Origin: Spirulina sp.
GTDB taxonomy: Bacteria; Cyanobacteriota; Cyanobacteriia; Phormidesmidales; Phormidesmidaceae
DNA: 43,743 nucleotides
Assembly: GCA_044070495.1 (NCBI GenBank)
Contig: JBIPSI010000039.1
Coordinates: 1 to 43,743 of the forward strand
Reading direction: 5' to 3'
A program made the translations under genes and the position numbers. This document shows, one piece after another, positions 176 to 9,735 of this stretch (position 1 is its first letter; each line of letters opens with the position of its first letter). The notes under the pieces are model-generated. The model saw nothing but the letters and a program-made list of their open reading frames with translations, did not search any database and was not told the DNA's origin.

Positions 176-1696
176 GTGGCATTGTTCAGACAACTCGGTT
201 TTGAGTCTCATCCTTTCCTTAAGACAAATGCTGACGAGGAGGAGGAGCTTCAATCTTATTTCGTGCCTCCTCCTTATTTTGATGCCATCATCGGCGATTC
301 CAACTCTCCTAACTCATCCATCGTATTGGCTCCACGTGGAGCAGGAAAAACTGCACAACGGCGAATGGTCGAAGCAGCATCGAATCAATCCAGATATTTG
401 GCTGTCACCTATGATCGATTTGAATTTAGTGCTAGCCAAAAAATCATTGATATATCACTTAATTATCATTTAAGAAATATCATTACACGCATTCTAATTT
501 CATTTCTTTCCTATCTAAGCGAATGGCCAGATGTTTCAAAAAGCTTATCCAAAGATGAAAAGAAGCAACTGGCCGTTTTTATTCAAACTTACTTGGGAGA
601 GCTAACTGGAGACAGCTTACAACAGCTTCTGAATGAATTAAAGAGTCTGCCCGATAAATTTAAATCGTTTTGGCACCAAAATGTCGGATTCATGGAATCA
701 GTCATTAATTTTCTCTTGAAGGCCTACGAACTCCCAAATATTGATTTACCCGACGCAAAACATGAAGAAAAACGCCTTGGAGAAACTTACAAATTTCAAC
801 TTGAAACATTACTAAAGCTAGTTCAAAAAATAGGCTTTAAGTCAATATATATTCTAGTAGATAGACCAGACGAAACAGAGAAGACCGGTAACGACCCCGA
901 GAGCACGTATCAGCTAATTCGGCCTTTGATACGTGATTTAGAGCTTCTTGGACTCTCTGGATATGGATTCAAGTTTTTTCTCTGGGATCAAATTGAGCCT
1001 TTCTTTCGATCAGACGCACGCCCGGACCGAGTGCCACAGTATGAATTGAAGTGGAGTAGAAATAGCTTGAAGGCAGTTCTATCGAAACGTCTGTTGGCAT
1101 TCAGTGGTGGGGGAATAAGCTCATTTGATGTTTTGTTGGAGGAGCCGTGTAACATTGATGATCAGCTTTGCCTGATGGCTAATGGTTCACCTCGAAACCT
1201 CATTCGACTTTGTGAGCGTATTTTAGCAATCCAGGGCGATCGTGACCCAACCTCTCGTAAGATTTCCCTGGCTGCTATTGACCAAGCAACGGTAGCTCAC
1301 AGTGAAAAAATATGCGTAGAAAACTATGGGGAAAATATTCTCAAAGAACTTCAGCGCGTAGGAAGGGAACTTTTTACCACAAACTTCGTCGCCAATGACA
1401 TCCTCAAAATTTCTGCTAACGGAGCACGCAATAAAATTACTAATTGGGTAAATCTCGGAGTAGTTTCGCAGGTAGGAACAGTGATTATTCCACCTGCTAC
1501 CCGACCAACATACTTATATGGTGTAATCGATCCATGTGTTGTGAGGGTGATGCATAGAGCCATACCTTTTGTGGACTTTGTTCATGATCGCTGGCTGCCC
1601 TGTGACCATTGCCTTACTGATAACTTAATAAACATTGCTCTCTTTCCCGATAATGAAGATCCAGTATGCCGTCAATGTGGACGAAAACTAATATGA
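176..1696 (+). CDS. P-loop ATPase (Sll1717/STAND-like) with C-terminal HTH-like region and Zn ribbon
   Basis: Walker A APRGAGKT, Walker B IYILVDRPDE, ANGSPRNLIRLC motif, CDHC...CRQC at C-terminus; GGAGGA RBS before GTG; low GC. Confidence 0.8.
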   Translation: MALFRQLGFESHPFLKTNADEEEELQSYFVPPPYFDAIIGDSNSPNSSIVLAPRGAGKTAQRRMVEAASNQSRYLAVTYDRFEFSASQKIIDISLNYHLRNIITRILISFLSYLSEWPDVSKSLSKDEKKQLAVFIQTYLGELTGDSLQQLLNELKSLPDKFKSFWHQNVGFMESVINFLLKAYELPNIDLPDAKHEEKRLGETYKFQLETLLKLVQKIGFKSIYILVDRPDETEKTGNDPESTYQLIRPLIRDLELLGLSGYGFKFFLWDQIEPFFRSDARPDRVPQYELKWSRNSLKAVLSKRLLAFSGGGISSFDVLLEEPCNIDDQLCLMANGSPRNLIRLCERILAIQGDRDPTSRKISLAAIDQATVAHSEKICVENYGENILKELQRVGRELFTTNFVANDILKISANGARNKITNWVNLGVVSQVGTVIIPPATRPTYLYGVIDPCVVRVMHRAIPFVDFVHDRWLPCDHCLTDNLINIALFPDNEDPVCRQCGRKLI

Positions 1697-2238: not shown

Positions 2239-2664
2239 ATGCCCGAATCATGTTCCGTTTTAATTGACTTTAGCGAAGCGGGTCTAGATCTGGATCGCGC
2301 TGAAGTGGAGAACTTTTTGCTCACCATCGCCGACGAAATGGAGTCTAGCGACCTGGCGCAGTCTGCCCGTCTAGCCCGTGATGAGGATATCCCAGATGCG
2401 GCTAAGTCTGGGGTGGCGGCGTTCCTCATCGGGATTCTCACCGCTGAGATCAACCGGGAGAACCTGGGTAAGGTGATGGATTACCTGGGGAACCTGCGCT
2501 ACGGCAAAACGCTGACTCTGTCCTTTGAAGTAGACGGTATGACCTCCACCCTTGAGTATCGCAACAAGCAGGAGTTGGATCAGGCGCTAGACGCCACCGA
2601 GCGGTTGGCAAACTTGCGGGTTAAGATACTGGAACAGCAAACTCCACCTGAAAACCAGCCATAG
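2239..2664 (+). CDS. EACC1-like small protein (caspase-associated)
   Basis: 141 aa with P-x-x-A-K-S-G followed by a hydrophobic helix (VAAFLIGILTA) and C-terminal LSFEVDG..LEY; directly upstream of a C14 caspase, the usual EACC1 arrangement. Confidence 0.7.
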   Translation: MPESCSVLIDFSEAGLDLDRAEVENFLLTIADEMESSDLAQSARLARDEDIPDAAKSGVAAFLIGILTAEINRENLGKVMDYLGNLRYGKTLTLSFEVDGMTSTLEYRNKQELDQALDATERLANLRVKILEQQTPPENQP

Positions 2665-2682
2665 CAATCCAAAGCCAACTCT

Positions 2683-4551
2683 ATGGGAAAGTATGCACTC
2701 TTAATTGGCGTTGATACCTATGGAGAAGGGCTACAACCGCTACCAGCCGCTTCTAAGGATGTGGCGGCGCTACGGGAGGTATTGCTGAACCCCCAGATGG
2801 GTGGGTTTGACGAAGCGAAACCCGTGATTAACCCCACGCAGCCAGAAATGGCGCGGGAAATTGAGCTGTGGTTTCAGGATCGGCAGCCGGAGGATCTGGT
2901 GCTGCTGTTCTTTTCGGGGCATGGAGTCAAGGACGATCGCCGCGATCTTTACTTTGCTGCTGCCAATACCGAGAAACAGCGCGATCGCCTACTCACGTCC
3001 ACTGCCACCTCTGCCCGGTTTCTCCATGACCGGATTCGGGCCTGCAAAGCCAAATATCAAGTGCTCATTCTCGACTGCTGCTTTAGCGGTGCTTTTGGTG
3101 ATCTGGTTGGCAAGGATGATGGCGAAATTCCCCTGCAAGAGCAACTGGGAGCTGAGGGGCGGGTGGTGCTGACCTCCACCAGTGCGGTGGATTATTCCTT
3201 TGAAGAAAAGGGCGCGGATCTGTCGATCTATACCCGCTACTTGGTGGAAGGCATTGCCACGGGTGCTGCCGATGAAGATGGCGATGGAGCGATCACCGCA
3301 GAAGACCTACATCGGTATGCGGGGCGAAAGGTACAGGAAGCTTCGCCTGCCATGAGTCCCAAAATCTTCATTCCGCAAGGCGAAGGTTATCGCATTCGGC
3401 TGGCTCGTTCGCCCCAGGATGACCCCAGGCTGAAGTATCGCAAAGAGGCCGAGCGCCGAGCTACGGCAGCGGAGTTTACGATTCCGGCCAAGCGGCTATT
3501 GATGGGGCTTCGTGCTGAACTGGGACTTGCGGAGGCGGAGGCAGATGCGATCGAAGCAGAGGTGTTGAAGCCCCACCGGGACTATCAGCGCAAACGGCAA
3601 GACTATCACGAGACCCTGCACCAATGCCTAGAGCGGGAATCGCCCCTGAGTCCACGCACCATCAACGATCTAATGGACTACCGCGCCCACCTGCGGCTCA
3701 AACCGGAGGATGTGGCGACCATTGAGCAAGCAGTACTGGGTGGCCAAGATTTAGAAGGATATATTACGGTTCTAGAACGCCAGCGGCAGTCAGAAGCCCA
3801 ACAGAGAAAACAGGAGCAGGCCGATGCCGAACGGCGGCAACAAGCAGAAGCTCAACGCCAGCGGGAAGCGGCGGAGCAGAAGCGACAGGCGAAATCCGCT
3901 GCCCAACGCCGACAGGAAGACACAGAAAGGCAAATACAAGTTATTTGGGCGAAAGTTAAGCAGCTATTAACCACTAATCAAACTGAGCAGCTAGCTAAGC
4001 CGAATCAAATACAGGAAACCAATCTCAACAGCGAAAAGGGCATCGACTATACCCCCCTGCACGACCTACTTAAAGCCCAAGACTGGCGCGCCGCTGACCG
4101 AGAAACCCTCGAAGTGATGATTCGCGCTGCGGGTCCAGACAAGGCTAAATCGGGCTATGGGTTCGCTGGAGATGTACTCCTGAATTTTCCCTGTACAGAC
4201 CTGCGAACCATCAACTACCTATGGGTGAAGTATAGCCAGGGCAAGTTTGGCTTTAGCGTGCAGAAGGAAATCTACGTGAAATGTGGAGCCAAACTCGACG
4301 GGGAAATGCCGGATGATGAAATCATTGGCAAGTTTTTCGATCACGTCGGCTGGTATAAAGGCGATAAATTTCTGAACTATTCAGACTTCAAAGCCAGTCT
4401 CTCTTTATCTCCCAGGGGAGAATTTCCATTTGGCTATTTTGTTCATTCGGAGGAAATTGTCCGAGAGTTCATAGAGTCTGGCCGATGGACTGGGTGGGGC
4501 TATGATCCAAGTATCTTCTCTCGCATCGAGACTTGTAATCGTTTAGCATAA
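2683..4551 (+). CDS. caspase (peptidase C14) - helical/coiled-coil - GUN4 domain protein
   Basis: KYALLIGV start, catalytic FSGHG and ILDCCFSG; Q/R/E-rich coiled coil; GUN4 motifs IDYTPLHDLL..WRAADRET and FPCTDLRTI..LWVKYSQGKFGFSVQ. Confidence 0.9.
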   Translation: MGKYALLIGVDTYGEGLQPLPAASKDVAALREVLLNPQMGGFDEAKPVINPTQPEMAREIELWFQDRQPEDLVLLFFSGHGVKDDRRDLYFAAANTEKQRDRLLTSTATSARFLHDRIRACKAKYQVLILDCCFSGAFGDLVGKDDGEIPLQEQLGAEGRVVLTSTSAVDYSFEEKGADLSIYTRYLVEGIATGAADEDGDGAITAEDLHRYAGRKVQEASPAMSPKIFIPQGEGYRIRLARSPQDDPRLKYRKEAERRATAAEFTIPAKRLLMGLRAELGLAEAEADAIEAEVLKPHRDYQRKRQDYHETLHQCLERESPLSPRTINDLMDYRAHLRLKPEDVATIEQAVLGGQDLEGYITVLERQRQSEAQQRKQEQADAERRQQAEAQRQREAAEQKRQAKSAAQRRQEDTERQIQVIWAKVKQLLTTNQTEQLAKPNQIQETNLNSEKGIDYTPLHDLLKAQDWRAADRETLEVMIRAAGPDKAKSGYGFAGDVLLNFPCTDLRTINYLWVKYSQGKFGFSVQKEIYVKCGAKLDGEMPDDEIIGKFFDHVGWYKGDKFLNYSDFKASLSLSPRGEFPFGYFVHSEEIVREFIESGRWTGWGYDPSIFSRIETCNRLA

Positions 4552-4731: not shown

Positions 4732-4977
4732 ATGCTTAGTACAACAGTCACTGATACCGGACAAATTACCTTACCTGACGAAATTCGGCAGCATCTCAAG
4801 CTAGTGAGCGGCAGCCGAGTCGAGTTCGTCATCGACGAAGACGGTCAAGTCAAAATCTTCCCCCTCAACGTTGCCGTAGAAACCCTATCCGGTATCCTTC
4901 ATCGCTCGGGCATTCAACCCGCCTCCCTTGAGGACATGGAAACCGCCATCTCCGAGGGCGCGAATGATTGGGCTTGA
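4732..4977 (+). CDS. AbrB/MazE-family antitoxin
   Basis: TTVTDTGQITLPDEIRQHLKL..GSRVEF motif; overlaps the PIN toxin start. Confidence 0.88.
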   Translation: MLSTTVTDTGQITLPDEIRQHLKLVSGSRVEFVIDEDGQVKIFPLNVAVETLSGILHRSGIQPASLEDMETAISEGANDWA

Positions 4978-5353
4978 TACCAACATCCTGGTTCGCTACC
5001 TCACCCGCGACGACGAGCAGCAGTGGCAGCAAGCCGCCACCGTTATTCAGCGAAGTCAGCCTTGCTTCGTTACCAATATCGTTCTGTGTGAGTTGGTTTG
5101 GGTGCTGAAGGGTGCAAACTATAGCTTTCGTAAGGACGAAATCATCGGCGTCCTAGAGGCGATGCTGCACAGTGCAGCTTTTGAATTTGAAGATCGCTCG
5201 ACGGTTGACCAGGCTCTACAGCGGTACAAGCAGGGCAAAGCTGATTTTTCTGATTATCTGATTGGGGCGGTATCTCGACAGGCCGGTTGCACAGAAACCG
5301 TAAGCTTTGATGGCAAATTGAAGGGTGAACGAGGATTTCGGTGTCTGGAGTAG
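4964..5353 (+). CDS. vapC: PIN-domain (VapC) toxin
   Basis: MIGLDTNILVRYL..., ELVWVL, ADFSDYLI, TVSFD motifs; ATG at 4964 overlaps the antitoxin end. Confidence 0.9.
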   Translation: MIGLDTNILVRYLTRDDEQQWQQAATVIQRSQPCFVTNIVLCELVWVLKGANYSFRKDEIIGVLEAMLHSAAFEFEDRSTVDQALQRYKQGKADFSDYLIGAVSRQAGCTETVSFDGKLKGERGFRCLE

Positions 5354-5360
5354 CATCGCC

Positions 5361-5446
5361 AGCTAACACTGCGTGGCAGCGGACGGTCATAAACTTCTGG
5401 TTTGCCTCCCAAGGCTGTCTGCCGCCGCTGCACTTCACCGTTAGAC
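5361..5446 (+). mobile_element. attC-like recombination site 3
   Basis: AGCTAAC 5361-5367 and GTTAGAC 5440-5446; arms GTG[G]CAGCGG[A]CGG / CCGCCGCTGCAC; 7 bp after the vapC stop. Confidence 0.9.
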
Positions 5447-5782
5447 TGCTTAATCTGCTGACTTAGCGAGTGTAACAAACATGAAAGAGAAGTAAGAGTA
5501 ATTACTGTGGTATGAGTATTTTCCCCTAAAGATTAATTGCATTTGCTTAAAACGAGGAATGTGCTAAAAATTTTAATCTGATAATAGAGGGTAGAAATAC
5601 TTAAGCTTCTTTGCTTTTTCTCCTGATTTGGAAAGCATTTACTAATGGCTAAACATGCTTAAGAGCTTGGGCACAGGGATTTAGGTAAGGACTGCCACTT
5701 ACCTCACCCGAATAAGAATCCCTATAGCACAACCAGTGACTTCTGAAGACGTTTAACAAAAAGTAGGAGAGTCGCTACTGTC

Positions 5783-7006
5783 ATGAACAAGAATTATTTA
5801 GATCCAAAACAATTCATGCTGGCTGACGACCTCATGACAAATATTATGGGAGCATTGGCACATGGTCATAAAGAATTGGTAACCCAATCGAATTCCAATC
5901 TTGGTACCCTAGCCGTAAAATCAGCACAACTGAATGTAAGTTTTGATTTCAGTGTAGTTGAAAAGAATACAGGTGAAAGACTGGGATTAACAGTAAGACC
6001 TAGCCCTTTTTTTGGATTTGCGGCTGGATTTCAAACTGAAAAGAGTGAACAAAGTGCTTCTATTTCAAATAGAGCAACCATTACAATTGATATTGTCAAT
6101 GTGGCACCACTATCGGATACAAAAGAATCTGATACATCATCAGGGGAAGACACAGAAGAAGGCACAACAGGAAATACTGGCAATCCTCCAGTCAGACCAT
6201 ATGATAAAGAACGCCTGAAAATTCTTCTTGATGAACTGCTTGCTTTTATTAAAAGAGATTGGCCATCCATTCTGTCTTCAACAGAAACCTTGGTTAATGA
6301 AATCGAAGTTTACCTTAGGACAGATGAGGTGAGAATAGCTGGAGCGCTTATAACAAAGCTGACAGGGGACTTGTATAAAGCATTCCAAGCAACTAATACT
6401 AGAATGTCTCGAGAACTAGAAGCAGTGCTTGGAAATTTAGATGCTTTTTTGAGTGGCATTAAGCTGACGGATGAACTCATCCCATCCAATACTAGGGATA
6501 TTATAGAATCCTTGCCTCGCCAATTTGGACTACTAGATTTAAGTGCTGAAATCCTGAGTAATTTCGACCAGCAAATTAAAGCTGTGCTCGGGTCTGACAG
6601 CGAAATTGCGGCTGGTCTCATACTTCAAAGGGCAATAGCTGAGCTTGCCCCTCATCTTTCTGGCAAGATCTTGCCAAAGAAACTGCTTGACAGTCTGGAG
6701 GAATTACGGCTTCTTAAGACACTCGACATAAGTGACATGCAATGGAAACAAGCATTTGAGTCATCGGTAAGAACACTGCGTACTTCTATTCGTACCCTCC
6801 AGTTGCCAGAAGATATAAGTACTGGTTTTGAAGCTGATTGTGACCATGCATTGGCAAGCCATAGTGCTATTGAAGCTGGGAGCCGCCTTGTGGTGGCATT
6901 GGATACACTAAATCGTACAACTCAGGAATTGCCATTATCCCAGGAGATACAGAAGGTGTTAGAGCAGTTTGTTCAACCCGCCATAACAAATGAGGAAACC
7001 TTGTAA
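5783..7006 (+). CDS. hypothetical protein: N-terminal Trypco2-like helix/beta module, acidic linker, three helical repeats
   Basis: 407 aa ORF with AGGAG RBS; domain call is pattern-based only. Confidence 0.75.
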   Translation: MNKNYLDPKQFMLADDLMTNIMGALAHGHKELVTQSNSNLGTLAVKSAQLNVSFDFSVVEKNTGERLGLTVRPSPFFGFAAGFQTEKSEQSASISNRATITIDIVNVAPLSDTKESDTSSGEDTEEGTTGNTGNPPVRPYDKERLKILLDELLAFIKRDWPSILSSTETLVNEIEVYLRTDEVRIAGALITKLTGDLYKAFQATNTRMSRELEAVLGNLDAFLSGIKLTDELIPSNTRDIIESLPRQFGLLDLSAEILSNFDQQIKAVLGSDSEIAAGLILQRAIAELAPHLSGKILPKKLLDSLEELRLLKTLDISDMQWKQAFESSVRTLRTSIRTLQLPEDISTGFEADCDHALASHSAIEAGSRLVVALDTLNRTTQELPLSQEIQKVLEQFVQPAITNEETL

Positions 7007-7027
7007 ATGTAACTAGGAGGGTTTCAA

Positions 7028-7447
7028 ATGCCAAATCTAGCTGAAGACGCGAAAGCCCTAGCTGAGCTTCTGACAAAATATGGAGTGGAGACAGTCGAGG
7101 AGCTTAAGAACAAAATTGAGAATTGGAAAAATAAGTCAGAAGAGCTGGCTGAGCTTCTGAAAGATTATGGAGTGGATACGGTCGATAAGCTTAAGGAAAA
7201 AATTAAGGAGTTGTCTGGTGGAATAAACGTACCAGGAAATGGATCCCCTTCACCGATAGCACCTGGTGATCCATTGCAGCCGCTGAAGCGACTTGCTGAG
7301 GCTATTGATGAAGCGGAGAGTATATTGAATCAACAAAATCTGGTAATTGCCAGTGGAACAGTTGAAGCTGCTCTTACGGTAAATGTGGGAGGAGCAGCGG
7401 CAGAGGCAAAAGTTAATCTCAATGTTCAGCCCCGTCCCTTTCAATAA
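7028..7447 (+). CDS. hypothetical protein with 29-aa tandem repeat and C-terminal helix/beta-hairpin module
   Basis: 139 aa, AGGAGG RBS; LAELL..YGV.TV..LK.KI twice. Confidence 0.8.
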   Translation: MPNLAEDAKALAELLTKYGVETVEELKNKIENWKNKSEELAELLKDYGVDTVDKLKEKIKELSGGINVPGNGSPSPIAPGDPLQPLKRLAEAIDEAESILNQQNLVIASGTVEAALTVNVGGAAAEAKVNLNVQPRPFQ

Positions 7448-7464
7448 AGGAGAGGTTCTACAAC

Positions 7465-7848
7465 ATGGCTGAAGATATAAGTACAGCAACATTAACAGTA
7501 GATTGTGAAAGCTGGCTTCGTGATGTAGGAGGACAGTTACCGGGTGGATCTACTCTAGTGGAACAATTGCTAAAGCTACTATCAGATGCAGGGATGCCTA
7601 CGACCATCACCTTAAGTATTCCTTTTCCAAACATTCCTTCTACAGAGTCAGAAGCTGCATCTGTCGATCCAATCAGGGTTATAGCAATGCTCACGAACGC
7701 CATTACTCAAGCGGAAGAGACGTTAACTCCCCAAAATATGGAGATCGCAGGTGGGCAAATCGATTCAATGTTTAATGTCACTGATGGGATAGGTGGCATT
7801 GCATCGGCTCACTTAATACTCAAAATCGTTCCAAAAACTTACTCATAA
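7465..7848 (+). CDS. hypothetical protein, C-terminus similar to the preceding gene
   Basis: 127 aa, AAGGAGAGG RBS; DPIRVIAMLTNAITQAEETLTPQNMEIAGG vs DPLQPLKRLAEAIDEAESILNQQNLVIASG. Confidence 0.8.
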   Translation: MAEDISTATLTVDCESWLRDVGGQLPGGSTLVEQLLKLLSDAGMPTTITLSIPFPNIPSTESEAASVDPIRVIAMLTNAITQAEETLTPQNMEIAGGQIDSMFNVTDGIGGIASAHLILKIVPKTYS

Positions 7849-7868
7849 CCTTAACCAAGGAGGATGTT

Positions 7869-8360
7869 ATGACACTCTCAACCGCAATGTCTGTCGCATC
7901 ATTTTCAGTTGTTCTCGCAGAAACTTTCGCTAGTGTTGGTTTATCAACGCTAGTACCAAATGCGTTTCTTGCTCTTGCAAGATCCGCTCACTCGGCATCA
8001 GCTACAATTCCATCTGATGACATTGAAGCTGCACTTAAGAGTATCACCAAAAGCGACCAACAGTCTAAAGTTGTGCCGCCTGTTCCCGTTCCGCCAGACC
8101 CCGCAGAAGTCGCAATTGCCCTGCTGGGAATACTCGGCAAGTCAACTTCATCTGTAGATTTGCTGGTGCCAAAATCAGCTTCTATTGATGCAGAGTTTGA
8201 GTTTTATGGAGCAGAGAGATATGCAGCAGATGTCTCTGTCGGGGCAATGGTGGAAGTTGTCACCGTTAAGGGAGGATATTCAGCCCTTTACGAAACCCAT
8301 TCCAGTAACAAGGTAAAACTCCATGTTGACTTTGTAACTGTAGCTGCAAGCCTAACCTAA
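7869..8360 (+). CDS. hypothetical protein with C-terminal Trypco2-like module
   Basis: 163 aa, AAGGAGG RBS; LLVPKSASIDAEFEF...SSNKVKLHVDFVTV matches LAVKSAQLNVSFDF...SNRATITIDIVNV of the 407-aa protein. Confidence 0.78.
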   Translation: MTLSTAMSVASFSVVLAETFASVGLSTLVPNAFLALARSAHSASATIPSDDIEAALKSITKSDQQSKVVPPVPVPPDPAEVAIALLGILGKSTSSVDLLVPKSASIDAEFEFYGAERYAADVSVGAMVEVVTVKGGYSALYETHSSNKVKLHVDFVTVAASLT

Positions 8361-8404
8361 ATAATTCACCAGCTATTTGAGGAATAGCAGAACCCTTTCA
8401 GGTA

Positions 8405-8541
8405 GGCACTGGTCTCTTAAAAGGAGGTGAATCGCCACAACTGTTATGTGGCAAGGGTTATAGCCACTTTAACCCAAAACCTCGAAAGTGCTTGTCAAGC
8501 AAGGCTTTCAGCCATTCATCACCGATTAACAGACCGGTGCC
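8405..8541. mobile_element. MITE-like insertion (137 bp) with 6-bp target duplication
   Basis: Imperfect TIRs GGCACTGGTCTCTTAA / TTAACAGACCGGTGCC, flanked by CAGGTA at 8399-8404 and 8542-8547. Confidence 0.8.
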
Positions 8542-8870
8542 CAGGTATTGCATTACGGCTTCCGTGTATAAAAGCACACTGCTAAAGCTCTAAAATCGCT
8601 GTATCCCTTGCTGCATAATGAGTTTGGCCATGTCCCACGTAGGGTCATGAATAATCCAGGCTAAAACAATAGTCCGGATAGTTTTAAATCACTAACGACA
8701 GAATACAGGGTTCAGGCTCCTCATTAAGGTCAAATGCTGACAGTAAAACGTGAGTTTCAGTGCAATCAGTAGTTTTGCAGGGAGCATTCCCACATATAAC
8801 TCCAACGACTTTACCAACCAATATCGGAGAACGCTTTTTGCTGATATATTCCTGAAAGTATGGAGTCTCA

Positions 8871-9155: not shown

Positions 9156-9512
9156 TTACTCAATCAGATGATTTTCGATGATTTGACAGATTGTTCTATC
9201 TGAAATGTCTCCTTGGTCAGATTTAGAGTAGATCGTGACCAGAATGATCTTGGCTTGAGTCTTCAGGTAGTAGATCACTCGGTAGCCGCCGCTTTTTCCC
9301 CGCTGAGCATCGCTATTTCTCAGTCGCACCTTAAAGACGGTATAGGCTATGCCCGAAATTTGGTCGCCGGGGCAATCTCCAGCCTGTAGTTGGGCGAGCA
9401 GAGGCTCTAGGTCTGAGCGAATGTGCCGATAGCGCTTGGCTAAGGCACGGAGGTTGCGCTTGAAGTCGGACGAAACCTCCAGATTAATGAATGATGGTTC
9501 ACTCGGCATCAA
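9156..9512 (-). CDS. RelE/ParE (HigB-like) toxin
   Basis: FKRNLRALAKRYR, VFKVRLRNSD..RGKSGGYRVIYY, ILVTIYSKSDQ motifs. Confidence 0.88.
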   Translation of the reverse strand: MMPSEPSFINLEVSSDFKRNLRALAKRYRHIRSDLEPLLAQLQAGDCPGDQISGIAYTVFKVRLRNSDAQRGKSGGYRVIYYLKTQAKIILVTIYSKSDQGDISDRTICQIIENHLIE

Positions 9513-9735
9513 TGCCGTCCCATAGTTCGGCCAGGGGAATGGTTTGACCAGTCATGGCTTCGTGCCAGCCTTGGCGAAAGCTGGCTTCGGCGCTTTTGAG
9601 GGTGACACTTTCGCGAAATAGACGCACAATCTGCAACAGGTTGGGCAGATATTCTGGGGGTGTTTGCTCAATCTCTTGCATTACGGCATCAAGTACAACG
9701 TTGTTGCTAGAAGCCATGGGGTTGCCTGTGGTCAT
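9499..9735 (-). CDS. cognate antitoxin
   Basis: 78 aa acidic ORF overlapping the toxin start; SFRQGWHEAMTGQTIPLAELWDGID C-terminus typical of this TA type. Confidence 0.75.
   Translation of the reverse strand: MTTGNPMASSNNVVLDAVMQEIEQTPPEYLPNLLQIVRLFRESVTLKSAEASFRQGWHEAMTGQTIPLAELWDGIDAE

What the first reader, a model, noticed from the sequence alone, without database searches (positions are those of the whole stretch)
5783..8360. Unknown four-gene operon whose products all share a helix + beta-hairpin module: candidate new system
Seen: four tightly spaced ORFs (17-21 bp gaps), each with a strong RBS, filling one cassette behind an AT-rich leader, with no enzyme motif recognisable. Each has an amphipathic helix, then an alternating-pattern strand and a closing strand. 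The long form is in ORF1's N-terminus (LAVKSAQLNVSFDF..GFAAGF..SNRATITIDIVNV) and ORF4's C-terminus (LVPKSASIDAEFEF..VKGGY..SNKVKLHVDFVTV). The short form is in ORF2 (LVIASGTVEAALTV..AKVNLNVQP) and ORF3 (MEIAGGQIDSMFNV..AHLILKIVP). ORFs 2-4 have DP just before the helix. Inference: this resembles Trypco2/DUF2589-type modules, and the four paralogous modules may co-assemble into a hetero-oligomeric beta-barrel, pore or filament for defence or antagonism.
Basis: partly seen in the sequence, partly recalled or inferred. Interest (0 to 1): 0.9.

Follow-up and report, generated by a model that had tools for sequence, protein, structure and literature searches.

The report
Conserved operon of Pepco-like hairpin proteins
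Four adjacent genes of unknown function form a rare cassette, conserved in gene order across several bacterial phyla, whose small proteins each carry a helix plus beta-hairpin module like that of a recently described pore-forming immune protein, so they may build a mixed ring or pore.

Summary
Four + strand ORFs (5783-8360) have 17-21 nt gaps, a ribosome-binding site each, and low GC (0.43 against 0.56 for the window).

This is a real, conserved cassette. Homologues of ORF1, ORF2/3 and ORF4 lie in the same order in 11 of 11 genome loci and in 5 of 5 metagenome loci that have enough upstream DNA. These come from several phyla and share no neighbouring gene. The ORF4 family is rare: 64 clusters among 1.84 billion representative proteins.

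AlphaFold2 gives a helix plus a long beta-hairpin for the ORF1 N-terminus and the ORF4 C-terminus. ORF2 and ORF3 are clear paralogues. Family-averaged hydropathy alternates strictly in every strand.

The links to Trypco2/Pepco and DUF2589 are all sub-threshold, so the proteins are not members of either family. A four-chain complex prediction gave only weak support (0.33 against controls of 0.00).

Best reading (about 0.45): a self-contained hetero-oligomeric ring or pore of the Pepco type, without a protease. ORF4 would supply a membrane helix, and ORF1 would supply a proline-rich tail plus a helical regulatory domain. Function is untested. I rate it a new variant of a known kind.

The parts
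5480..5782 (+). AT-rich untranslated leader upstream of ORF1
   Evidence: GC is 0.373. The sequence was read. No sigma-70-like site or Rfam match lies here.
5783..7006 (+). ORF1 (407 aa), family 1: N-terminal module, Pro/charged linker, then an all-alpha C-terminal domain
   Evidence: The ORF is listed. It has two full-length homologues among 5.8 billion proteins and shorter family members in all related loci.
5822..6100 (+). ORF1 module: helix aa 14-35 plus long beta-hairpin aa 46-72 / 80-106
   Evidence: AF2 secondary structure is. pLDDT is below 50 in most of the hairpin (segments 36-51 and 55-98). Hydropathy alternates. This is the most conserved part of the family. All three of the listed differences from the 95% relative that fall in the conserved strand cores (codons 43-58, 95-107) are synonymous.
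6101..6205 (+). ORF1 linker aa 107-141, predicted disordered, rich in Pro and charged residues
   Evidence: pLDDT is below 50. Across the family the linker is 13-48 aa long with 7-46% Pro.
6206..6967 (+). ORF1 C-terminal all-alpha domain, aa 142-395
   Evidence: AF2 pLDDT is about 90. Foldseek against the PDB gives no match at E <= 0.001, only weak rows to helical-repeat, 14-3-3 and armadillo proteins. Its length varies from 64 to 267 aa in the family.
7028..7447 (+). ORF2 (139 aa), family 2/3: variable N-terminus with an internal helical repeat, then the short module
   Evidence: The N-terminus gives only sub-threshold helical Pfam hits.
7259..7444 (+). ORF2 short module (aa 78-139): DP, helix, strand, GG loop, strand, conserved Pro, then 4 residues to the stop
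   Evidence: The family alignment is. The tail is 4 aa in 16 of 17 members. hhalign to Trypco2 scores 20.7 against a null of 9.4 +/- 1.6.
7465..7848 (+). ORF3 (127 aa), paralogue of ORF2
   Evidence: It is 31% identical to ORF2 over 102 aa. ORF3-like second copies occur in L004, L009, L045 and L051.
7654..7845 (+). ORF3 short module (aa 64-127)
   Evidence: It aligns with the ORF2 module.
7869..8360 (+). ORF4 (163 aa), family 4: conserved hydrophobic N-terminal helix, variable linker, C-terminal long module
   Evidence: It has 53 homologues and 64 clusters among 1.84 billion representatives. The AF2 model has mean pLDDT 75.
7872..8000 (+). ORF4 N-terminal helix aa 2-44, a candidate membrane segment
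   Evidence: AF2 predicts helix 2-44. It is nearly invariant across the family. The family-mean Kyte-Doolittle value for the best 19-residue window is 1.74, starting at residue 7.
8100..8351 (+). ORF4 module: helix aa 78-92 plus beta-hairpin aa 95-117 / 140-161
   Evidence: AF2 result is, with strand pLDDT 87-92. Hydropathy alternates. The motifs KSAxIxAxFEF and SNKxxLxVxFVxV are shared with ORF1.

Best explanation
The four genes are one operon and belong to a rare, horizontally spread cassette with three components: family 1, then one or two copies of family 2/3, then one or two copies of family 4.

Each product carries an amphipathic helix followed by amphipathic beta-strands. This is the same topology as Pepco (Trypco1/2), which forms constitutive 9-10-mer beta-barrels.

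I infer that the modules pack side by side into one hetero-oligomeric beta-ring or barrel that acts at the cytoplasmic membrane. In this model:
- ORF4 contributes a highly conserved hydrophobic N-terminal helix as the membrane element.
- ORF2, ORF3 and ORF4 end 4-6 residues after the last strand, like Pepco after its inhibitory tail has been cut off.
- Only ORF1 keeps a Pro/charged-rich tail, followed by an alpha-helical domain. That tail and domain would gate or sense, replacing the separate protease of Pepco systems.

The likely role is triggered membrane permeabilisation in a conflict or stress setting.

What is shown: the operon, its conservation, the ORF2-ORF3 and ORF1N-ORF4C paralogy, and the topology of ORF1 and ORF4. 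What is inferred: co-assembly, membrane action, gating by ORF1, and a defence role.
For: **Synteny.**
- 11 of 11 genome loci show the order family 1, family 2/3, family 4. They come from Phycisphaerales, several Alphaproteobacteria, Binatia, Kofleriaceae and Flaviaesturariibacter.
- 5 of 5 metagenome loci with at least 1 kb of upstream DNA show the same order.
- No neighbouring gene recurs across the loci.

**Structure and sequence pattern.**
- AF2 gives ORF4 as H78-92, E95-117, E140-161, and ORF1 as H14-35, E46-72, E80-106.
- Family-averaged hydropathy alternates strictly in all strands, as it does in 21 bona fide Trypco2 domains.
- The ORF1-module profile ranks ORF4 as its first non-self hit in the whole genome (E 0.025).

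**hhalign against 40 column shuffles.**

| Pair | Score | Null |
|---|---|---|
| ORF1 module vs ORF4 module | 22.2 | 10.4 +/- 2.2 |
| ORF1 module vs ORF2/3 module | 20.5 | 9.3 +/- 2.1 |
| ORF2/3 module vs Trypco2 | 20.7 | 9.4 +/- 1.6 |
| ORF4 module vs Trypco2 | 22.0 | 10.4 +/- 1.6 |

In each case 0 of 40 shuffles reached the observed score.

**Links to known families.**
- Trypco2 is the top recurrent Pfam hit, in 9 of 53 ORF4 homologues.
- DUF2589 is the nearest Atlas cluster (0.86, 172-173 of 256 features shared).
- hhalign of DUF2589 against the ORF4 module scores 23.3 against a null of 11.3 +/- 2.1.

**Tails.** Family 2/3 ends 4 aa after its final Pro in 16 of 17 members. Family 4 has a median tail of 6 aa. 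Trypco2 tails are 17-58 aa. Family 1 has a Pro-rich linker followed by 64-267 helical residues.

**ORF4 N-terminal helix.** The family-mean hydropathy is 1.74.

**Complex prediction.**
- Verdict: weak support. The score was 0.33 and the best of 3 controls was 0.00.
- The pass mark was reached by 116 of 157 solved complexes and 2 of 215 mismatched pairs.
- A passing score of 0.60 or under was seen in only 18 of the 157 solved complexes and in both mismatches that passed.
- The runs agree in at least 67% of contacts, and the partner's pLDDT is at least 51.

**Selection.** Among the first 30 listed differences from a 95%-identical relative, 16 codon changes are synonymous and 13 are not. All three changes in the conserved strand cores (codons 43-58, 95-107) are synonymous.

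**Literature.** The Pepco mechanism comes from bioRxiv 10.1101/2025.11.14.688446 (passages, section 8 read in full).

**Window context.** The cassette sits among a DS41_1 anti-phage ATPase, an EACC1-type caspase and two toxin-antitoxin pairs.
Against: - No window protein hits Trypco2 or DUF2589 in Pfam, even at E <= 10. The genome has no Trypco2 match at all.
- With full-length profiles, ORF4 family against Trypco2 (23.0) is no better than against reversed Trypco2 (22.9 and 24.6). That score may therefore reflect only strand periodicity.
- The ORF2/3 module against the ORF4 module is not significant (11.2; 9 of 40 shuffles reach it). The ORF1 module against Trypco2 is not significant either (12.6; 5 of 40).
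- An HMM search with the ORF4 family over 1.84 billion proteins stops sharply at 64 clusters. I scanned none of the newly found clusters against Pfam, so no bridge to Trypco2 was shown.
- The complex score is only 'weak', and the tool notes such passes are more often wrong than right unless the guess was likely beforehand.
- Hairpin lengths differ: about 27 residues per strand in ORF1, about 23 in ORF4, and by my reading of the sequence about 15 and 10 in ORF2/3. This is awkward for one uniform barrel.
- Most of the ORF1 hairpin has pLDDT below 50.
- ORF2 and ORF3 were not folded.
- None of the 11 other genome loci has an adjacent trypsin-like or caspase peptidase. Only 2 of them have a neighbour that hints at conflict: a Schlafen-type helicase in L012 and an eCIS_core protein in L010.
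Confidence: 0.45

Rival explanations
1. The cassette builds a non-toxic structural or stress-related assembly at the inner face of the membrane, such as a scaffold, a membrane-remodelling coat or a small compartment wall. It uses the same beta-hairpin packing but has no killing function.
For: In most other genomes the cassette sits among housekeeping genes such as SecA, GyrB, IF-1, lipoate ligase and hydantoinase, with no defence genes nearby. No protease or other trigger is conserved beside it. It was not found in phage, plasmid or viral collections. The ORF1 C-terminal domain looks like a helical repeat or scaffold, though the rows are weak.
Against: The distribution is sporadic and very rare: 0 of 400 other genomes of the phylum and 64 clusters in 1.84 billion. 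GC is markedly lower than in the host genome. In this window the cassette lies in an island of defence and toxin-antitoxin genes. These features fit accessory conflict genes better than a housekeeping structure.
Confidence: 0.25
2. The proteins do not form one ring. ORF4 alone is a small membrane-active toxin, acting through its hydrophobic helix and hairpin, and ORF1-3 are its antitoxins, chaperones or regulators.
For: ORF4 is by far the best conserved and most widespread component: 53 homologues against 2 full-length ones for ORF1. It is duplicated in L013. It has the only hydrophobic helix. Toxin-antitoxin pairs flank the cassette in this window.
Against: The fixed three-family order holds in 16 of 16 informative loci. 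The ORF1 and ORF4 modules are paralogous, so they are more likely like-with-like partners. In the complex prediction, replacing chain 1 (ORF1) dropped the score to 0.00, though the overall support was only weak.
Confidence: 0.15
3. The resemblance among the short module, the long module and Trypco2/DUF2589 is convergent. Any amphipathic helix plus amphipathic hairpin would look alike, and the analogy says nothing about mechanism.
For: Reversed-sequence controls equal the real ORF4-Trypco2 score. All Pfam and HMM cross-hits are sub-threshold. The ORF2/3-to-ORF4 comparison is not significant. Foldseek and VIA-align give only generic long-hairpin or long-helix rows.
Against: Three methods of different kinds point to the same two families and to no other recurrent family. 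For ORF1-ORF4, ORF1-ORF2/3 and ORF2/3-Trypco2, the real scores exceed the reversed controls by 6-10 units.
Confidence: 0.12

Closest known systems
Pepco (Trypco1 / Trypco2, Pfam PF19493 / PF19631)
   Same: Both are small non-enzymatic proteins with an N-terminal amphipathic helix followed by amphipathic beta-strands that end in a conserved Pro. In the 21 cyanobacterial Trypco2 domains the last strand reads xHKVKVxLxP, against AKVNLNVQP in ORF2 and AHLILKIVP in ORF3. Hydropathy alternates strictly in both. Trypco2 is the most recurrent sub-threshold Pfam family.
   Different: Pepco is a single gene that forms homo-oligomers. It lies next to a trypsin-like or caspase protease fused to a sensor, and it is activated by removal of a 17-58 aa tail. 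Here there are three or four different module-bearing genes, no conserved protease and no tail on three of the four proteins. ORF4 adds an extra hydrophobic helix and ORF1 a large helical domain. The Pfam thresholds are not met.
DUF2589 (Pfam PF11655)
   Same: The nearest language-model clusters to ORF4 are all DUF2589 (0.86). hhalign of 3 DUF2589 proteins against the ORF4 module scores 23.3 against a null of 11.3 +/- 2.1. In 3 of 3 full-length Bacteroidota loci, DUF2589 also sits in a three-gene set. The second gene's N-terminus resembles Trypco2 and the third, helical gene weakly resembles the ORF1 C-terminal region.
   Different: The DUF2589 model matches nothing in 5 of 5 cassette-bearing genomes and none of the window proteins. 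DUF2589 has no known function. The two papers that mention it were seen only as search listings.
EACC1 / bacterial gasdermin-type protease-gated pore formers
   Same: They follow the same general logic: a small latent membrane-active protein kept inactive by a cis element. An EACC1-associated-type caspase lies 1.2 kb upstream in this window.
   Different: No sequence or fold relation was found. The caspase gene is separated from the cassette by a VapBC pair and is not conserved next to the cassette elsewhere.

Membership tests
Trypco2 / Pepco (PF19631) | Score above the Pfam gathering cut-off (24.2 bits) | tested here: not met
   No window protein or isolated module hits the model at E <= 10. 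The genome has no match at E <= 1. Among homologues, 9 of 53 ORF4-family and 1 of 17 ORF2/3-family members hit at E <= 1 (best 0.0016), all below the cut-off. 0 of 13 ORF1-family members hit.
Trypco2 / Pepco (PF19631) | Amphipathic N-terminal helix followed by amphipathic beta-strands | tested here: met
   AF2 models show this for ORF1 and ORF4. Family hydropathy alternates in all four modules and in Trypco2. For ORF2/3 it is inferred from alignments only.
Trypco2 / Pepco (PF19631) | Adjacent trypsin-like or caspase-like protease gene | tested here: not met
   0 of 11 genome loci have such a neighbour. L013 has a convergent S9 prolyl oligopeptidase and L008 has an esterase/S9 gene several kb away. 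In the window a caspase-GUN4 gene lies upstream but is separated from the cassette by VapBC.
Trypco2 / Pepco (PF19631) | Cleavable C-terminal tail after the last strand | tested here: not met
   The ORF2/3 family has a 4 aa tail in 16 of 17 members and the ORF4 family a median of 6 aa, against 17-58 aa in 21 Trypco2 proteins. Only the ORF1 family has a Pro/charged tail, and that tail continues into a folded domain.
Trypco2 / Pepco (PF19631) | Detergent-resistant homo-oligomeric beta-barrel that permeabilises membranes | not testable with these tools
   This needs biochemistry. The only related computation is the weak four-chain prediction (0.33 against 0.00).
DUF2589 (PF11655) | Score above the Pfam gathering cut-off (23 bits) | tested here: not met
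   There is no hit in the window proteins. 0 of 5 cassette-bearing genomes match at E <= 0.01.
DUF2589 (PF11655) | Remote similarity by profile or language-model features | tested here: inconclusive
   The Atlas score is 0.86 with 172-173 of 256 features shared, which the tool rates a lead only. hhalign against the ORF4 module scores 23.3 against a null of 11.3 +/- 2.1, but the ORF1 and ORF2/3 modules are not significant.
Known anti-phage systems (PADLOC-DB 2.0) | A match of any component to a PADLOC model | tested here: not met
   ORF1, ORF3 and ORF4 give 0 families. ORF2 gives only coiled-coil noise at E of about 0.01.

The most novel reading that the evidence does not exclude
The cassette is a protease-independent, heteromeric relative of the Pepco pore, a self-contained death effector. 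Three tail-less, 'pre-activated' hairpin subunits (ORF2, ORF3 and the membrane-anchored ORF4) would be held in check by a fourth subunit, ORF1. ORF1's own Pro-rich tail and helical sensor domain would gate the barrel in cis, so that sensing, gating and killing are all built from paralogues of one module.
Probability: 0.22. Interest if true: 0.8.

Novelty: new variant of a known kind. Interest (0 to 1): 0.6.

Why it matters
According to a 2025 preprint, Pepco is among the most abundant protease-associated immune effectors in prokaryotes, and it works as a pre-formed beta-barrel unlocked by a protease.

A conserved cassette built from three diverged versions of a similar module, with no protease, would show a second way to control such barrels. 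It would also add a family of small hetero-oligomeric membrane assemblies. Finally, it would offer a first functional handle on DUF2589, which has no known role.

If the cassette instead proves to be a benign scaffold, it is still an unannotated, cross-phylum protein complex.

Tried and rejected
**Family libraries.** Pfam, NCBIfam, PADLOC and PHROGs scans of the four proteins gave nothing above threshold.

**Solved structures and folds.**
- PDB sequence search with the three family profiles found no relative. The only hits were helical noise such as bS20 for the ORF1 C-terminal region.
- Foldseek against the PDB found no match at E <= 0.001. For ORF4 the weak top rows (E 0.3-1) are the stem hairpins of pore-forming toxins and ring proteins, as expected for any long hairpin. 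For ORF1 they are weak helical-repeat rows.
- VIA-align wide search for ORF4 gave a best Z of 4.6, matching long helices only.

**ESM Atlas.** ORF2 gave no usable hit.

**Searches for related loci.**
- With the ORF1 alignment, nothing was confirmed in genome contigs or metagenome contigs.
- With the ORF4 alignment, nothing was found in viral contigs.
- tblastn of ORF4 against plasmids and phages gave no match.

**Leader.** The promoter and terminator scan was not above shuffles, and Rfam found nothing in 5300-8800.

**Expression.** No RNA holder is listed. One run labelled metatranscriptomic holds the relative's contig, but the tool marks its RNA status as a guess.

**Earlier findings.** Three look-ups of the search of earlier findings all returned nothing.

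**Steps that could not be done.**
- PF27273, the Pfam family precomputed for ORF2, is not in the local library, so its name is unknown.
That ORF1 and ORF4 homologues share contigs is therefore inferred only from equal contig lengths, 2624 and 2811.

**Rejected reading.** I rejected a secreted fibre or adhesin. No signal peptide is apparent by eye, and the positive charges follow rather than precede the ORF4 hydrophobic helix.
Full report
**1. The observation**

Four + strand ORFs lie at 5783-7006 (407 aa), 7028-7447 (139 aa), 7465-7848 (127 aa) and 7869-8360 (163 aa). The gaps between them are 21, 17 and 20 nt. A GGAG-type ribosome-binding site lies upstream of each start.

The 303-nt leader has GC 0.373 and the cassette has GC 0.431. 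The whole window is at 0.557, and 10000-43743 is at 0.582.

No Pfam, NCBIfam, PADLOC or PHROGs model reaches threshold for any of the four proteins. The isolated modules also fail at E <= 10 in Pfam.

**2. These are real genes in a conserved cassette**

*Homologue counts*
- ORF1 has only two full-length homologues among 5.8 billion clustered proteins.
- ORF2 has two homologues.
- ORF4 has 53.
- A full HMM search with the ORF4 alignment over 1.84 billion representatives found 64 clusters at E <= 0.001 and 45 at E <= 1e-30, with a sharp fall-off.

*Synteny*
- Eleven genome loci were retrieved with the ORF4 alignment. They come from Phycisphaerales, several Alphaproteobacteria and Sphingomonadales, Binatia, Kofleriaceae and Flaviaesturariibacter.
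- All eleven encode an ORF1-like protein, then one or two ORF2/3-like proteins, then one or two ORF4-like proteins, in that order and tightly spaced.
- Eight further metagenome loci were retrieved. Of these, 5 of 5 with at least 1 kb of upstream DNA show the same order. One (L048) is cut within the ORF2/3-like gene, and two have no upstream DNA.
- The four-gene form, with two ORF2/3 paralogues, occurs in the window, L004, L009, L045 and L051. L013 has two ORF4 copies.
- The family HMMs used were trained partly on the eleven genome loci. The metagenome loci and the ORF1-like gene of L014 are independent of that training.

*Neighbours and distribution*
- Neighbouring genes are unrelated from locus to locus. 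I scanned 73 neighbour proteins against Pfam and compared all ORFs kept from the 11 loci (those of at least 70 aa) with each other by blastp. No recurrent partner appeared.
- Within the window's own phylum, the ORF4 profile matched 0 of 400 other genomes and the ORF1 protein matched none credibly.
- ORF4 was not found in the plasmid, phage or viral-contig collections.

*A close relative*
- A relative about 95% identical at the nucleotide level carries the whole cassette. It appears in contigs of four runs from three studies.
- It has a 93-nt in-frame insertion after codon 2 of ORF2. This matches the 170-aa homologue P0059.
- The first 30 listed differences fall in ORF1 codons 7-193. They give 16 synonymous and 13 non-synonymous codon changes.
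- All three changes in the conserved strand cores (codons 43-58, 95-107) are synonymous.

**3. The shared module**

*ORF4 structure.* AlphaFold2 with 53 sequences gives a mean pLDDT of 75. The model has a long N-terminal helix (2-44), helices 49-60 and 78-92, and a hairpin E95-117 / E140-161 with strand pLDDT 87-92. The loop at 122-137 has low confidence.

*ORF1 structure.* AlphaFold2 with 13 sequences gives a mean pLDDT of 74. The model has H14-35 and a hairpin E46-72 / E80-106, most of it at pLDDT below 50. A disordered linker follows at 107-141, then a confident all-alpha domain at 142-395.

*Paralogy*
- ORF2 and ORF3 are 31% identical over 102 aa.
- ORF1 32-108 aligns with ORF4 88-159 at 25% identity. 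The two share the motifs KSAxhxAxFDF and SN(K/R)xxhxhxhVxV (h = a hydrophobic residue).
- Those motifs occur nowhere else in 6.28 million six-frame residues of the genome. They were defined after the fact.
- A profile built only from ORF1-family modules ranks ORF4 as its first non-self hit among 72,207 frames (E 0.025). It hits 4 of 53 ORF4-family members at E <= 0.1.

*Hydropathy.* Family-averaged hydropathy alternates strictly through both strands of all four modules. The same is true in 21 bona fide Trypco2 domains taken from related genomes.

*Profile-profile scores against 40 column shuffles*

| Pair | Score | Null | Shuffles reaching it |
|---|---|---|---|
| ORF1 module vs ORF4 module | 22.2 | 10.4 +/- 2.2 | 0 of 40 |
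| ORF1 module vs ORF2/3 module | 20.5 | 9.3 +/- 2.1 | 0 of 40 |
| ORF2/3 module vs ORF4 module | 11.2 | not significant | 9 of 40 |

**4. Relation to Trypco2/Pepco and DUF2589**

*Signals in favour*
- Trypco2 is the only recurrent Pfam family among ORF4 homologues: 9 of 53 at E <= 1, best 0.0016.
- One of 17 ORF2/3 homologues hits Trypco1 (0.0065) and one hits Trypco2 (0.041).
- hhalign gives 20.7 for the ORF2/3 module against Trypco2 and 22.0 for the ORF4 module against Trypco2. No shuffle out of 40 reached either score.
- hhalign of DUF2589 against the ORF4 module gives 23.3, with 0 of 25 shuffles reaching it.
- The ESM Atlas places ORF4 nearest to three DUF2589 clusters, at 0.86 with 172-173 of 256 features shared. 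The tool rates this a lead only.

*Signals against*
- No window protein hits either Pfam model.
- The DUF2589 model matches nothing in 5 of 5 cassette-bearing genomes.
- 0 of 13 ORF1 homologues hit a Trypco family.
- The ORF1 module against Trypco2 is not significant, with 5 of 40 shuffles reaching the score.
- With full-length profiles, the ORF4-to-Trypco2 score (23.0) equals the score against reversed Trypco2 (22.9 and 24.6). For ORF1-ORF4, ORF1-ORF2/3 and ORF2/3-Trypco2, the real scores exceed the reversed controls by 6-10 units.

I conclude that the topology is shared. Homology to Trypco2/DUF2589 is plausible but not demonstrated, and the proteins are not members of either family by the families' own criteria.

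**5. What is known about the comparator**

Kaur et al. 2020 (PMC7159879, passages read) named Trypco1 and Trypco2 as genes that co-occur with trypsin-like peptidases.

Evans et al. (bioRxiv 10.1101/2025.11.14.688446; passages, section 8 read in full) renamed them Pepco. They report:
- constitutive, detergent-resistant 9-10-mer beta-barrels;
- an amphipathic basal helix that is needed for toxicity;
- a hydrophobic exterior and a charged lumen;
- activation by protease removal of a charged, Pro-rich C-terminal tail.

Three literature searches found no paper whose title or abstract describes a multi-gene cassette of this kind:
- 'Trypco2' (8 papers hold the term, 4 listed);
- 'Pepco' + 'beta-barrel' + 'phage' (2 papers, 1 listed);
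- 'DUF2589' (2 papers).

I saw the papers other than the two above only as listings.

**6. Mechanism proposed (inference)**

The fixed three-family order, the tight spacing, the paralogy of the modules and the tolerated duplications all suggest subunits of a single assembly.

*Tail lengths after the last strand*

| Family | Tail after the last strand |
|---|---|
| ORF2/3 family | 4 residues after the final Pro in 16 of 17 members |
| ORF4 family | median 6 residues |
| Trypco2 (21 proteins) | 17-58 residues |
| ORF1 family | Pro-rich linker of 13-48 aa (7-46% Pro), then 64-267 helical residues |

So three subunits look like Pepco after its tail has been removed. ORF1 alone carries a tail, and that tail is tethered to a domain.

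ORF4 has an almost invariant hydrophobic helix, with a family-mean hydropathy of 1.74 over 19 residues.

I therefore propose a hetero-oligomeric beta-ring or barrel at the membrane, gated by ORF1.

Its verdict was 'weak support':
- The score was 0.33 and the best of 3 controls was 0.00.
- The pass mark was reached by 116 of 157 solved complexes and 2 of 215 mismatched pairs.
- A passing score of 0.60 or under was seen in only 18 of the 157 solved complexes and in both mismatches that passed.
- The runs agreed in at least 67% of contacts, and the partner's pLDDT was at least 51.
- The tool notes that the calibration holds only roughly for this kind of job.

**7. Context and role**

In this window the cassette lies among several defence and toxin-antitoxin genes:
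- a DS41_1 anti-phage ATPase at 176-1696 (E 1.1e-142);
- a small unknown gene followed by a caspase of the EACC1-associated type fused to GUN4, at 2239-4551;
- a MazE/PIN pair at 4732-5353;
- a RelE/ParE-type toxin at 9156-9512.

That is a defence-island setting. Elsewhere, however, the neighbours are mostly housekeeping genes. A defence or antagonism role is therefore possible but weakly supported, and a benign structural role remains a serious rival.

**8. Verdict**

The cassette is an unannotated, rare, cross-phylum operon built from diverged copies of a Pepco-like module. I rate it a new variant of a known kind.

My confidence is about 0.9 that it is a real conserved operon with shared modules. 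It is about 0.45 for the hetero-oligomeric membrane ring or pore. It is lower still for a defence role.

Noticed in passing
window 176-1696 (+): A 506-aa P-loop ATPase matches NCBIfam DS41_1_antiphage (E 1.1e-142, above its cut-off) and the Sll1717 ATPase family. This marks the left part of the window as a defence island.
   Followed up: partly
window 2239-2664 and 2683-4551 (+): A 141-aa protein with no family hit lies 19 nt upstream of a 622-aa fusion protein. The fusion joins a caspase ('caspase, EACC1-associated type', E 6e-49), a Q/E/R-rich coiled region and a GUN4 domain. PADLOC matches PD-T4-6 over the GUN4 part. The small gene may be a diverged EACC1-like substrate of the caspase.
   Followed up: partly
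window 4732-5353 (+) and 9156-9735 (-): Two toxin-antitoxin pairs flank the cassette. One is a MazE/AbrB-type antitoxin with a PIN toxin. The other is a RelE/ParE-type toxin with an upstream 78-aa partner.
   Followed up: partly
window 7033/7034 and 8405-8547: A relative about 95% identical at the nucleotide level appears in contigs of four runs from three studies. It has a 93-nt in-frame insertion after codon 2 of ORF2, and it lacks about 143 nt just downstream of ORF4 (sequence compared).
   Followed up: partly
window 7028-7240 (ORF2 aa 1-70): The ORF2 N-terminus contains two tandem copies of a helical unit of about 27 aa (LAELLxxYGVxTVxxLKxKI). It gives only sub-threshold hits to HhH-like and coiled-coil families. 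The precomputed annotation lists Pfam PF27273.1 for this protein, which is not in the local library.
   Followed up: no
L039:1303-3429, L040:183-2364, L041:1453-3375: In 3 of 3 full-length Bacteroidota loci, the DUF2589 gene is followed by two further genes. The first is a 234-272-aa protein whose N-terminus resembles the Trypco2 helix plus first strand (hhalign 19.7; null 10.5 +/- 1.6; reversed 12.5). The second is a 183-194-aa helical protein that weakly resembles the ORF1 C-terminal region (20.6; null 9.5 +/- 0.9; reversed 12.8). This may be a parallel three-gene system.
   Followed up: partly
L010:1043-5404; L012:878-2881; L013:3528-4505: In a Kofleriaceae MAG, a 1453-aa protein with an eCIS_core domain lies just upstream of the cassette. 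In a Sandarakinorhabdus MAG, a Schlafen-type helicase lies about 3 kb upstream. A Flaviaesturariibacter MAG carries two tandem ORF4-family genes.
   Followed up: no
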